Source: a bacterium
GTDB lineage: Bacteria; Margulisbacteria; Marinamargulisbacteria; UBA817; JABISL01
Length of the DNA stretch: 64,000 nucleotides
Direction: 5' to 3'
Assembly: GCA_018700055.1 (NCBI GenBank)
Contig: JABISL010000050.1
Coordinates: 7,619 to 71,618, forward strand
Shown here: positions 27,885-28,760 of the stretch, piece after piece
Numbering within the stretch: position 1 is the first letter of the stretch
How the letters are laid out: each line of letters opens with the position of its first letter
Notes under the pieces: model-generated
What the model saw: the letters and a program-made list of their open reading frames with translations, nothing else
What the model was told of the DNA's origin: nothing
Database searches by the model: none
Position numbers and translations under genes: made by a program

Positions 27885-28760
27885 TTAGGAGTTCACCGCT
27901 GACGTGAATGACGTTAGCATCTTGTTGATCATCGTTAAGGCCGATTGCACAATGTTATATCCCCGTTGCAGCTGAATCCCAACAATTGTCGTCTCAGCCG
28001 GATTCACGTTGGAGGATTCCACTGTGGCGCCAACAACATCTCCAAAAGAAGCCTGGCCTGCCACACCATATCGCGCTGGTTCTCCCGAATTAATCGTGGT
28101 TTTGTACGCATTTCCAACGACACTCTCTAAAGAAGACGGATTGGGAACATCCGCCAATGCCAGTTGAAATAGTTCTTCACCTTCCGGTACCGTCTCATCA
28201 TTTTCCCGCGCTGTTTTTCGGGCATTAAAGTTAGTTACTAATAACCCATCATCTTCAAACCCAACATCACTTAAATCCACTGTGTCGGGATCGAGTTTAA
28301 TCTCAGTCATATTACTAGTATCGGTTGTTCCGTTCGTTCGTTTAAATCCCATTACCTTCCGGCCATAGACATCTACTAATGTGCCATCTGCGGCAAAAAC
28401 GAAGTCACTCGCACGGGTATATACAAAGTTACTTGAGTTCTCTGGCTTCATGGTAAACAGCCCTTGCCCTGATACCGCGGCATTAAGCCTACCACCGGCC
28501 TGTAGTCCACCCTGACTAAAGTCGAGACCCATAGGCAATAGCATGACGCCTGCGGCAAAGGATTGGACATTACTTGACCCTGCTGTACCCGTAGAAGCCG
28601 TGCCTACACGGGCAATGGCATCTGAATAGATGGATGTAAAAGTGTATCGCGTCTGCTTATATCCGTTACTTTGAAAGTTTTGGACATCGGCGGCCAGGAC
28701 TCGCATGGCATCACTAAATGCAACAATGGAGTTTTCTAACATACTTAACGTTTCGAACAT
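27885..28760 (-). CDS. flagellar basal-body rod / hook family protein (FlgE/FlgF/FlgG-like)
   Basis: The N-terminal rod motif AADVQNFQSNGYKQTRYTF matches NIAN.nT.GyK..r..F. Central region: DFSQGGLQAGGRLNAAVSGQGLFTM...YTRASDFVFAADGTLVDVYGRKVMGF. The C-terminal motif VESSNVNPAETTIVGIQLQRGYNIVQSALTMINKML matches lE.SNVd...E...mI..QRgy. Confidence 0.8.
   Translation of the reverse strand: MFETLSMLENSIVAFSDAMRVLAADVQNFQSNGYKQTRYTFTSIYSDAIARVGTASTGTAGSSNVQSFAAGVMLLPMGLDFSQGGLQAGGRLNAAVSGQGLFTMKPENSSNFVYTRASDFVFAADGTLVDVYGRKVMGFKRTNGTTDTSNMTEIKLDPDTVDLSDVGFEDDGLLVTNFNARKTARENDETVPEGEELFQLALADVPNPSSLESVVGNAYKTTINSGEPARYGVAGQASFGDVVGATVESSNVNPAETTIVGIQLQRGYNIVQSALTMINKMLTSFTSAVNS

What the first reader, a model, noticed from the sequence alone, without database searches (positions are those of the whole stretch)
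27885..28760. Orphan FlgE/FlgG-family axial protein with no flagellar neighbours
The 291-aa protein has both terminal signatures of flagellar rod/hook proteins. The N-terminal motif is ...NFQSNGYKQTRYTF. The C-terminal motif is VESSNVNPAETTIVGIQLQRGY...INKML. It also has the central DFSQGGL...GQGLFTM...YTRA.DF.F..DGTLV core. In characterised systems these proteins are exported by the flagellar type III apparatus and polymerise, and they are encoded next to other rod/hook genes. Here the neighbours are unknown proteins and a giant ORF. Its size is closer to the rod proteins FlgF/FlgG than to a typical hook protein.
Basis: partly seen in the sequence, partly recalled or inferred. Interest (0 to 1): 0.65.

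Follow-up and report, generated by a model that had tools for sequence, protein, structure and literature searches.

The report
Hook-slot protein of a flagellin-less flagellar machine
The gene is a real flagellar rod/hook-family protein and not a true orphan: it fills the hook position of an unusual flagellum-like motor that nearly all Margulisbacteria carry and that has no flagellin, hook-filament junction or filament-cap genes, so what this motor builds or exports is unknown.

Summary
The 291-aa ORF (27885-28760, minus strand) is real and belongs to the FlgE/F/G family (TIGR03506, 109 bits against a cut-off of 70). Its model is a two-domain D0-Dc-D1 subunit without D2, closest in fold to FlgG. 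It is orphan only locally. The genome, an uncultured marine Margulisbacterium, carries a scattered basal-body, motor and export gene set, including its own FlgG. It has no detectable FlgD, FlgK, FlgL, flagellin, FliD or FliS.

In distant relatives the orthologue lies between a FliK-like gene plus a FlgD-position gene and fliM-fliN-fliP...flhA, which is the hook slot. The family occurs in 118 of 121 genomes of the phylum. Flagellin (15/121) and FlgK (13/121) occur only where a second system with a long FlgE and a second FlhA is present.

In Marinamargulisbacteria the gene moved to the end of a conserved eight-gene operon of cysteine-free helical proteins. The operon has a conserved sigma-28-like promoter, and its 5' end is transcribed in three metatranscriptomes.

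Best reading: it is the distal axial (hook-equivalent) subunit of a flagellin-less flagellar-type machine. Its distal partner or cargo is unknown. This is a new variant of a known kind.

The parts
27885..28760 (-). P0001: 291-aa FlgE/F/G-family axial protein (D0-Dc-D1, no D2). It is the hook-slot subunit of the flagellin-less system.
   Evidence: family cut-offs met; model and FlgG-like fold; own clade, SH-aLRT 98; orthologues lie between FliK-like/FlgD-position genes and fliM; invariant F41 in an FxxxPhi gate-recognition motif.
27474..27878 (-). n134: 134-aa acidic helical protein directly downstream. It is conserved after the FlgE-like gene in relatives (111-132 aa). Function unknown; a chaperone-like role is only a guess.
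   Evidence: no family; conserved position; 0 Cys.
28806..30599 (-). n597: 597-aa K/E-rich helical protein. It is the third gene of the phylum-wide n262-n78-n597 triad.
   Evidence: 23 orthologues; alignment A2; no PDB relative; 0 Cys, 0 Trp.
30618..30854 (-). n78: 78-aa protein, the middle gene of the triad. Its stop overlaps the start... its start overlaps the n262 stop (ATGA).
30851..31639 (-). n262: 262-aa protein with a confidently modelled C-terminal helical bundle (residues 115-262). Homologues occur in 103/121 genomes of the phylum.
   Evidence: pLDDT >90 for the C-terminal domain; no sequence or fold relative in PDB.
31643..32176 (-). n177: the variable slot of the operon (177 aa here; 320-354 aa in the sister family; 500-1,200 aa in other classes).
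   Evidence: RNA contigs cover it.
32194..32478 (-). n94: 94-aa helix-loop-helix protein.
   Evidence: RNA contigs.
32544..32798 (-). n84: 84-aa helix-loop-helix protein and first gene of the operon. It is the best conserved gene of the operon, occurs as 2-3 tandem copies in some relatives, and has the highest RNA contig depth.
   Evidence: tandem copies in L047, L049; 62% mean column identity; depth 15-23 against about 4 on n94/n177; no known family.
33003..33048 (-). Conserved bipartite promoter-like element: TCCATACAT (33039-33031), N18, CGATA (33012-33008). The -10 element and the spacing are sigma-28/FliA-like.
   Evidence: same motif and spacing in 8 upstream regions from 7 genomes; RNA contigs end at 32963/32990, just downstream; a FliA orthologue is present; the motif is essentially operon-specific.
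32799..33000 (-). 5' UTR of about 200 nt, with a conserved AAGGAGG box near its 5' end and a stable hairpin (CCUAAAACC...GGUUUUAGG).
   Evidence: z = -3.08 against shuffles.
5297..27160 (-). Giant 7,287-aa ORF downstream. Homologues adjoin the operon in the same order. It is not shown to be part of the system.
   Evidence: giant homologues in L010, L046, L048, L049, L051; sigma-28-like CAAAGTTA-N12-ATCGATAT upstream; 8 Cys in 7,287 aa.

Best explanation
P0001 is the distal axial (hook-slot) subunit of a divergent flagellar-type machine that lacks flagellin. This machine is conserved across Margulisbacteria and is the only flagellar-type system in this genome.

Shown: it is a true FlgE/F/G-family protein with D0-Dc-D1 architecture. 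Its family is one clade found in nearly every genome of the phylum. In distant members the gene sits in the order radical-SAM, FliK-like, FlgD-position gene, X, FliM-FliN-FliO-FliP-o334-FliQ-FliR-FlhB-FlhA. The own genome keeps that operon with exactly this slot empty, and the gene now lies at the 3' end of an eight-gene operon of Cys-free helical proteins. That operon has a conserved sigma-28-like promoter and is transcribed at its 5' end. The gene is under strong purifying selection.

Inferred: the protein is exported unfolded through the FlhAB/FliPQR gate, powered by FliHI, as an early-type substrate; it keeps the FxxxPhi gate-recognition motif at the position homologous to FlgE 39-43. It then polymerises through its terminal D0 helices on the FlgG distal rod into a thin tube of about rod diameter that lacks a D2 layer, with length set by the FliK-like proteins. 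Because MotAB and FliG are present, the structure is probably rotated.

What assembles on it or passes through it is unknown. The co-operonic proteins, above all the highly expressed n84, are the prime candidates.
For: Family membership.
Fold: (FlgG chains, TMq 0.76 / TMt 0.87, E 3e-18; FlgE matches only through D0-D1).
Own-genome inventory.
Absences: flagellin; FlgD; FlgK; FliC, FliD, FliS, FliT, FlgK, FlgL, FlgM, FlgN.
Only five TIGR03506-type ORFs exist in the genome, and four are rod-type.
Ancestral synteny; the FliK domain is confirmed in the upstream gene.
Phylum distribution: short form 118/121; flagellin 15/121; FlgK 13/121.
Two FlhA genes occur in all 7 flagellin-positive genomes tested from the long-FlgE/FlgK families, and one in the flagellin-less genomes tested.
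The long FlgE lies in a separate fla operon without o334.
Single clade with SH-aLRT 98.
GRM: invariant F41 compared with FlgE 39-43 (PMC8983047) and the E. coli alignment.
Operon conservation.
Promoter.
RNA.
Purifying selection.
Zero Cys in all eight operon proteins, 1,717 aa, against 0.92% in the proteome.
Against: By sequence and fold the protein is at least as close to FlgG as to FlgE. E. coli FlgG hits it at 5e-16 while E. coli FlgE does not, and the tree places the clade beside FlgG/FlgF in a poorly resolved, long-branch region. No hook-cap (FlgD) homologue is detectable in this genome. The 'FlgD-position' gene of relatives has no Pfam hit, so calling the slot a hook slot rests on gene order and on the FliK domain. 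No RNA contig covers the gene itself (contigs show presence, not absence). The promoter motif is not shared with other flagellar operons. Nothing has been observed experimentally, and the organism is known only as a MAG.
Confidence: 0.68

Rival explanations
1. It is an extra distal-rod component, a FlgG paralogue that lengthens or stiffens the drive shaft inside the periplasm. On this reading the machine has no hook at all.
For: The best fold matches are FlgG chains. There is no D2 domain. The Dc spacer of 45 residues equals that of E. coli FlgG, against 27 in E. coli FlgE (PMC5288503 for the FlgG-specific 18 residues). E. coli FlgG hits it and E. coli FlgE does not. The tree places it near FlgG/FlgF.
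Against: A bona fide FlgG (E. coli FlgG 7.9e-47) is already encoded next to FlgA, FlgH and FlgI. The ancestral position after FliK-like and before fliM is the hook position. G041's long FlgE also has the 45-residue Dc spacer, so that feature does not discriminate. Length-control (FliK-like) genes are retained.
Confidence: 0.15
2. It is the hook of an otherwise ordinary swimming flagellum. On this reading the junction, filament and cap proteins have diverged beyond recognition, and the co-operonic n-proteins are those diverged FlgK, FlgL, FliC and FliD.
For: Other parts of this system are very divergent: FlgB scores 16 bits and FliE 27 bits. The operon is driven by a sigma-28-like promoter as late flagellar genes are. 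Its proteins are Cys-free. n84 is highly expressed and tandemly duplicated, as flagellins often are.
Against: The Flagellin_N and FlgK models readily find the canonical genes of the second system in the same phylum, and nothing else. The n262 model is a helical bundle with no fold match to flagellin, FlgK, FlgL or FliD, all of which are in the PDB. Profiles of n262, n597 and n84 hit nothing. None of these proteins shows the terminal axial-family motifs.
Confidence: 0.1
3. It is a decaying remnant of a lost flagellum with no present function.
For: Filament genes are absent, and the gene is displaced from the core operon.
Against: An intact ORF is present in 118/121 genomes. dN is 0.14-0.17 with saturated dS, giving dN/dS of about 0.1 or less where it can be computed. 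Invariant structural residues are kept. The model is confident. The operon context and promoter are conserved.
Confidence: 0.02

Closest known systems
FlgG, distal rod protein (Salmonella/E. coli; PDB 7CBM, 8WKI, 6JZR)
   Same: It has the same two-domain D0-Dc-D1 architecture and nearly the same length. It is the best structural match (TMq 0.76 / TMt 0.87, about 24% identity). The Dc spacer length is equal, and both have the Flg_bbr_C terminus.
   Different: It forms a separate clade on a long stem. The FlgG equivalog scores fall far below their cut-offs (84 against 350; 78 against 253). The genome has its own canonical FlgG. The ancestral gene position is after FliK/FlgD-position genes and not beside FlgF/FlgA/FlgH/FlgI. 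It has about 27 extra residues at the site where FlgE carries D2.
FlgE, hook protein (Salmonella 6JZT; Campylobacter 5JXL); short D2-less hook proteins of Firmicutes such as B. subtilis FlgE (recalled from memory, not tested here)
   Same: It has the same gene-order slot (FliK, cap-position gene, X, fliM...), which is the fla/che-type order. It has an FxxxPhi gate-recognition motif at the position homologous to FlgE 39-43. Campylobacter FlgE is the top sequence hit in the PDB (4.8e-14). Public pipelines label relatives 'FlgE'.
   Different: It has no D2 domain. The FlgE equivalog cut-offs are not met (89 against 469). E. coli FlgE does not detect it. No recognisable FlgD, FlgK or FlgL partners exist in this genome. 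Where a canonical long FlgE exists in the phylum, it belongs to a different system.
Flagellin-less flagellar basal bodies kept as export devices: Buchnera aphidicola (PMC8109811) and Lysobacter enzymogenes OH11 (PMC7688988)
   Same: Basal-body, hook and export genes are retained without fliC. In Lysobacter the FT3SS-like system exports non-flagellar proteins. This gives a precedent for a secretion role.
   Different: Those are recent reductions of an ordinary flagellum within single lineages. Here the flagellin-less set is ancient and phylum-wide. It coexists with a complete second flagellum in some families. It keeps MotAB and FliG. It has its own signature genes (o334, n262-n78-n597) and signal-peptide-bearing FlgB/FlgC.

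Membership tests
FlgE/FlgF/FlgG axial-protein subfamily (TIGR03506) | Whole-protein score above the curated cut-off | tested here: met
   109.2 bits against a cut-off of 70.25; the whole-genome scan gives the same result.
FlgE/FlgF/FlgG axial-protein subfamily (TIGR03506) | C-terminal D0 helix (Pfam Flg_bbr_C) and D1 domain (PF22692) | tested here: met
   PF06429, 26.2 bits (GA 23); PF22692, 28.1 bits (GA 27). The model has terminal helices 2-27 and 254-290 and a beta-rich D1.
FlgE/FlgF/FlgG axial-protein subfamily (TIGR03506) | N-terminal Flg_bb_rod motif (PF00460, ...N(I/L)AN..T.G(F/Y)K) | tested here: inconclusive
   PF00460 is not reported at E <= 0.01. The sequence reads DVQNFQSNGYK and aligns without gaps to FlgG/FlgE residues 9-136.
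FlgE hook protein (functional class) | Equivalog HMM cut-off | tested here: not met
   The best FlgE equivalog, NF004241, scores 89.3 bits against a cut-off of 469.
FlgE hook protein (functional class) | Outer D2 domain (present in most but not all hook proteins) | tested here: not met
   There is no PF07559 hit. The model has only D0-Dc-D1, and FlgE chains align with TMt of about 0.5.
FlgE hook protein (functional class) | Gene position after fliK and the hook-cap gene, within the core operon | tested here: met
   This holds for orthologues in six distant genomes (L056, L060, L062-L065). It does not hold at the own locus, where that slot on C17 is empty.
FlgE hook protein (functional class) | Partner proteins FlgD (cap) and FlgK/FlgL (junction) in the genome | tested here: not met
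   PF03963: none. TIGR02492: only the N-terminus of FlgG. E. coli FlgD, FlgK and FlgL: no hits. HMM of the FlgD-position family: no hit.
FlgG distal rod protein (functional class) | Equivalog HMM cut-off, and being the genome's FlgG orthologue | tested here: not met
   NF009278 scores 84 against 350, and TIGR02488 scores 78 against 252.75. The FlgG orthologue is C22:31459-32259.
Early (rod/hook-type) flagellar T3SS substrate | Gate-recognition motif FxxxPhi about 5 residues after the G(F/Y)K motif, and no Sec leader | tested here: met
   The motif is F41-T-S-I-Y45, with F41 invariant in 50 family members. E. coli FlgE has GFK-SGTAS-FADMF. The GRM is defined in PMC8983047. Actual export cannot be tested with these tools.

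The most novel reading that the evidence does not exclude
Margulisbacteria carry a distinct, ancient class of flagellum-derived rotary machine, which I call 'system 2'. It has FlgB, FlgC and FlgF homologues with Sec-type leaders, an extra gene (o334) inside the fliP-fliQ gate cluster, a D2-less FlgG-like hook-slot protein, and no flagellin, junction or cap. Its distal structure or cargo would be made of non-flagellin proteins: the Cys-free helical products of the n84...n597 operon (n84 as a needle-like or mini-filament subunit) and/or the adjacent giant proteins. The present gene would be the adaptor between a conventional motor and that unknown appendage or secretion conduit.
Probability: 0.25. 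Interest if true: 0.9.

Novelty: new variant of a known kind. Interest (0 to 1): 0.62.

Why it matters
Flagellar genes in uncultured phyla are routinely read as evidence of swimming. Here a whole phylum that is sister to Cyanobacteria keeps a conserved motor, rod, rings and a hook-slot protein that are under purifying selection, but has no filament, junction or cap genes. Its flagellated members carry a second, ordinary flagellum alongside it. That points to a long-lived alternative use of the flagellar machine, either a different appendage or protein export. It also supplies a concrete set of candidate partner genes, a promoter and expression data with which to test the idea. Finally, it shows that automatic 'FlgE' labels on these genes conceal an unusual system.

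Tried and rejected
1. The search for related loci with the single protein in named genomes found nothing. Context came instead from the look-up of encoding contigs and the genome search.
2. Pfam and NCBIfam on all operon neighbours gave no hits.
3. Profile searches of n262, n597 and n84 against PDB sequences returned only chance-level hits. Pfam per-member scans of n84 gave nothing consistent.
4. An AF2 model of n262 searched with Foldseek against the PDB gave a best E of 0.49, a generic helical bundle with no flagellin, HAP or tip-protein match.
5. I tried to define a regulon with a PWM of the conserved promoter. Only the operon site scores high; seven weaker sites compare with 0-3 in shuffles, so no link to other flagellar operons is shown.
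6. I tried Dc-segment length as a rod-versus-hook discriminator and rejected it, because G041's canonical long FlgE has the same 45-residue spacer.
7. An HMM of the FlgD-position family against the own proteome, the n-operon loci and E. coli FlgD gave no hits.
9. dN/dS: synonymous sites are saturated in all available pairs, so only an upper-bound style statement is possible.
10. The Margulisbacteria genome papers do not mention flagella, so no prior description was found. Absence from this library is not proof of absence.
11. Rfam on the operon returned a single CRISPR-DR44 hit inside the n94 CDS, which I judge to be chance.
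Full report
OBSERVATION. The ORF at 27885-28760 lies on the minus strand and encodes 291 aa. The protein passes the curated cut-offs of PF22692 (FlgE/F/G D1 domain; 28.1 bits, GA 27), PF06429 (Flg_bbr_C; 26.2 bits, GA 23) and NCBIfam TIGR03506 FlgEFG_subfam (109.2 bits, cut-off 70.25). It reaches no FlgE, FlgF or FlgG equivalog cut-off. The genes around it are, on the minus strand upstream, 84, 94, 177, 262, 78 and 597 aa; downstream, 134 aa and then a 7,287-aa ORF. 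None has a Pfam or NCBIfam match.

ORGANISM AND GENOME INVENTORY. The window lies on contig C49 of a 1.85-Mb assembly of 58 contigs, 42.8% G+C and 95.9% complete. Close homologues that carry names come from 'Candidatus Marinamargulisbacteria' or 'Margulisiibacteriota' MAGs, and the DNA is found in marine metagenomes.

The genome is not flagellum-free.
- Contig C22 encodes, in order, a FliK-like protein, an FlhB-C-like protein, FlgF-like, FlgG, FlgA, FlgH, FlgI, a sigma factor, FlgB, FlgC, FliE and FliF.
- Contig C17 encodes a radical-SAM protein, a second FliK-like protein, FliM, a ParA/FlhG-like ATPase, FliN, FliO?, FliP, an unknown 334-aa protein ('o334'), FliQ, FliR, FlhB, FlhA and a sigma factor.
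- FliI and FliH are on C6, and a clear FliA orthologue is on C5.
- Two FliG-like/MotA/MotB modules are on C40 and C47.

The following were not detectable: Flagellin_N (E <= 0.1), FlgD, FlgK, and, with E. coli queries, FlgD, FlgK, FlgL, FliC, FliD, FliS, FliT, FlgM and FlgN. Only five ORFs match TIGR03506. They are FlgG, FlgC (weakly), two FlgF-like paralogues and the target. The target is therefore the only candidate for a sixth, hook-position axial protein.

WHAT THE PROTEIN LOOKS LIKE. With a 50-sequence alignment, AlphaFold2 gives a confident model (pLDDT 86.9, pTM 0.79). It has an N-terminal helix at 2-27, a low-confidence Dc stretch at 46-65, a beta-rich D1 domain and a C-terminal helix at 254-290. 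The top Foldseek hits in the PDB are FlgG chains of the Salmonella distal rod (E about 3e-18, TMq 0.76, TMt 0.86-0.88, 24% identity). FlgE chains match only over D0-D1, with TMt of about 0.5. By sequence the protein is equidistant from Campylobacter FlgE (4.8e-14) and Salmonella FlgG (5.6e-14). E. coli FlgG detects it at 5e-16, whereas E. coli FlgE does not.

It has no D2 domain. About 27 extra residues sit where FlgE carries D2. The Dc spacer from GYK to FSQG is 45 residues, as in E. coli FlgG, against 27 in E. coli FlgE. The canonical long FlgE of another Margulisbacterium also has 45, so this feature does not separate rod from hook.

The family keeps an invariant Phe, F41, within F41-T-S-I-Y45. 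This lies at the position homologous to the gate-recognition motif of FlgE (residues 39-43), which docks early subunits on FlhB-C (PMC8983047; E. coli FlgE reads GFK-SGTAS-FADMF). The protein has no Sec leader.

RELATIVES AND PHYLOGENY. A word-indexed search found 48 close relatives of 265-300 aa at 40-59% identity. An exhaustive search found a graded series of full-length proteins of about 280 aa down to about 27% identity, followed by long FlgE proteins that match in two pieces. In a maximum-likelihood tree of 174 sequences, all short forms, including the target, make one clade (SH-aLRT 98, stem length 0.7). This clade is separate from E. coli FlgE and from the long FlgE proteins. It sits in a poorly resolved group with FlgG and FlgF in which several long branches meet. 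I therefore treat the family as its own clade of the FlgE/F/G subfamily, neither an FlgE nor an FlgG orthologue.

GENE ORDER TELLS WHICH SLOT IT FILLS. In six genomes from other families and classes of the phylum (L056, L060, L062-L065) the short form lies directly upstream of fliM-fliN-fliO-fliP-o334-fliQ-fliR-flhB-flhA. It lies downstream of a gene of 128-197 aa in the position of flgD, and of a 240-286-aa gene with a FliK C-terminal domain (PF02120, 35-37 bits, above GA). In two of the loci a radical-SAM gene heads this series. That is the hook position of fla/che-type operons. The own genome keeps the same operon on C17, from the radical-SAM gene and FliK-like gene straight to FliM, and precisely the two genes in between are missing. 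The target was therefore moved out of that slot. The FlgD-position gene has no detectable counterpart in this genome.

TWO SYSTEMS IN THE PHYLUM. I sampled 121 genomes of the phylum.
- The short form is present in 118 (all 71 high-quality genomes).
- Flagellin_N is present in only 15.
- FlgK is present in 13.

The genomes with flagellin and FlgK are those of four families that also carry a long FlgE of 650-860 aa. All seven genomes tested from those families have two FlhA genes. Five flagellin-less genomes have one FlhA, as do G035 and G112, whose flagellin hits are weak or possibly contamination. In G041 the long FlgE sits in a second fla operon with MotA/MotB-like genes, FliN, FliP, FliQ, FliR and FlhB and without o334.

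I conclude that there are two systems. 'System 1' is an ordinary flagellum present in a few families. 'System 2' is phylum-wide, carries the short hook-slot protein and has no flagellin, junction or cap. The genome under study has system 2 only.

THE OPERON IT NOW LIVES IN. The order n84-n94-variable-n262-n78-n597-FlgE-like-n134 is conserved in the same order and in part of the class. The triad n262-n78-n597 is usually preceded by a ~100-aa n94-like gene and a large variable protein of 500-1,200 aa, and it is conserved across the phylum without the FlgE-like gene. n262 homologues occur in 103 of 121 genomes. The hook-slot gene therefore joined a pre-existing module.

All eight proteins together (1,717 aa) contain no cysteine, against 0.92% in the proteome, and only three tryptophans. 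That is typical of proteins exported unfolded, but it does not prove export. n262 has a confidently modelled C-terminal helical bundle with no fold or sequence relative in the PDB. Profiles of n597 and n84 also hit nothing. n84 is the best-conserved gene of the operon and occurs in two or three tandem copies in some genomes.

PROMOTER AND EXPRESSION. Eight upstream regions from seven genomes share TCNATRCAT-N18-CGATA at a fixed spacing. In the window this is 33039-33031 and 33012-33008 on the minus strand. The -10 element and the spacing resemble sigma-28/FliA promoters (TAAA-N15-GCCGATAA; established knowledge), whereas the -35 element is lineage-specific. A FliA orthologue and two FliA-like sigma factors are encoded in the genome. 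A genome-wide PWM scan shows the motif to be essentially specific to this operon, so it does not tie the operon to other flagellar operons.

Assembled RNA contigs at 100% identity from three metatranscriptome studies cover 31673-32990, that is n177, n94, n84 and the 5' UTR. They end just downstream of the -10 element and are deepest over n84. No contig covers the target gene, which is uninformative for contig data.

SELECTION. Among congeneric pairs dN is 0.14-0.17 for the FlgE-like gene while dS is saturated, giving dN/dS of about 0.1 or less where it can be computed. The gene is functional.

HOW IT MOST LIKELY WORKS.
- Shown: family membership, fold, slot, distribution, operon, promoter motif, 5' transcription and purifying selection.
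- Inferred: export through the flagellar gate as an early substrate; polymerisation on FlgG into a thin tube of about rod diameter without a D2 layer (rod 13 nm against hook 18 nm in Salmonella; PMC5288503); length control by the FliK-like proteins; and rotation by the MotAB/FliG motor.
- Unknown: what lies distal to it.

Precedents for flagellin-less flagellar machines used as exporters are Buchnera (PMC8109811) and Lysobacter enzymogenes (PMC7688988). The present system differs from them. It is ancient and phylum-wide, it retains stators, and it coexists with a complete flagellum in some lineages.

AN UNEXPECTED PROPERTY OF THE SYSTEM. In all 30 class-level genomes examined, the FlgC orthologue starts with a Sec-type signal-peptide-like leader: a basic n-region, 12-18 hydrophobic residues and an A-Q-G/S-like end, ahead of the conserved D0 helix. 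Most FlgB orthologues and both FlgF-like paralogues of this genome have such a leader too. FliE, FlgG and the target family do not. In canonical flagella FlgB, FlgC and FlgF are T3SS substrates (established knowledge). I could not decide between a cleaved signal and a membrane anchor, and the point is recorded as unexplained.

VERDICT. The 'orphan' interpretation is only partly right. The gene is the hook-slot member of a flagellin-less flagellar-type system whose other genes lie elsewhere in the genome. It has been relocated into an operon of unknown, probably exported, helical proteins. It is a new variant of a known kind. The system around it could be more novel than that, and I give this about a 25% chance.

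Noticed in passing
G000 C22:35992-36832 (FlgB, FlgC), C22:30626-31447 and C38:53432-54280 (FlgF-like); loci L085-L114: The proximal-rod homologues FlgC (30/30 class-level genomes), FlgB (most genomes) and both FlgF-like paralogues begin with Sec-type signal-peptide-like leaders ahead of the D0 helix. FliE, FlgG and the target family do not. Canonical rod proteins are T3SS substrates, so this would be unprecedented as far as I know.
   Followed up: partly
G000 C17:8140-9144; L060, L063, L064, L065: A 286-421-aa protein with a signal-peptide-like N-terminus ('o334', no Pfam family) is inserted between fliP and fliQ in system 2. It is absent from the long-FlgE operon (L061). It is a useful signature gene of the system.
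   Followed up: partly
G000 C40:966-4288 and C47:6436-9939: Two paralogous modules, each with an unknown protein of about 325 aa, a FliG-like protein, MotA and MotB. This gives two rotor/stator sets for one export gate.
   Followed up: no
G000 C17:2042-3154; L056:6131, L063:2503: A radical-SAM enzyme gene heads the series FliK-like, FlgD-position gene, short FlgE. It is conserved there in distant genomes, which suggests a post-translational modification linked to the hook-slot module.
   Followed up: no
window 32799-33000 (minus strand): A 5' UTR of about 200 nt upstream of n84, with a conserved AAGGAGG box just after the promoter and a 9-bp hairpin (CCUAAAACC...GGUUUUAGG). Its fold is more stable than shuffles (z = -3.08). 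It may be a site of translational control.
   Followed up: partly
window ~27258-27295 (minus strand), upstream of the giant ORF: A sigma-28-like sequence, CAAAGTTA-N12-ATCGATAT, lies about 100 nt upstream of the start of the 7,287-aa ORF. It is a single instance and its conservation was not tested.
   Followed up: no
L013:7060-8169, and the same position in L051-L054 and L069; window 35493-37931: In many relatives a ~370-400-aa gene sits inside the operon between n78 and n597. In L013 it is a family-2 glycosyltransferase by Pfam; the others were not scanned. In the window an 812-aa methyltransferase+GT2 fusion and an RgpF-like gene lie just upstream of the operon. This hints that the operon products are glycosylated, as flagellins often are.
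   Followed up: partly
window 33727-35550 (minus strand) and 33081-33722 (plus strand): The 607-aa protein (7 Cys, no family) and the divergently transcribed 213-aa protein are conserved neighbours of the operon in the order (two n607 copies in L046). Function unknown.
   Followed up: no
G000 C14:3701-3746 (minus strand): A second good match to the operon's promoter motif (TCCATGCAT-N18-CGATAA) lies 100 nt upstream of an ORF of at least 1,200 aa that runs off the contig end. It may be co-regulated.
   Followed up: no
window 32331-32358 (plus strand): A single Rfam CRISPR-DR44 match (36.4 bits, gathering 35) lies inside the n94 coding region on the opposite strand. There is no array, so it is most likely chance.
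   Followed up: no
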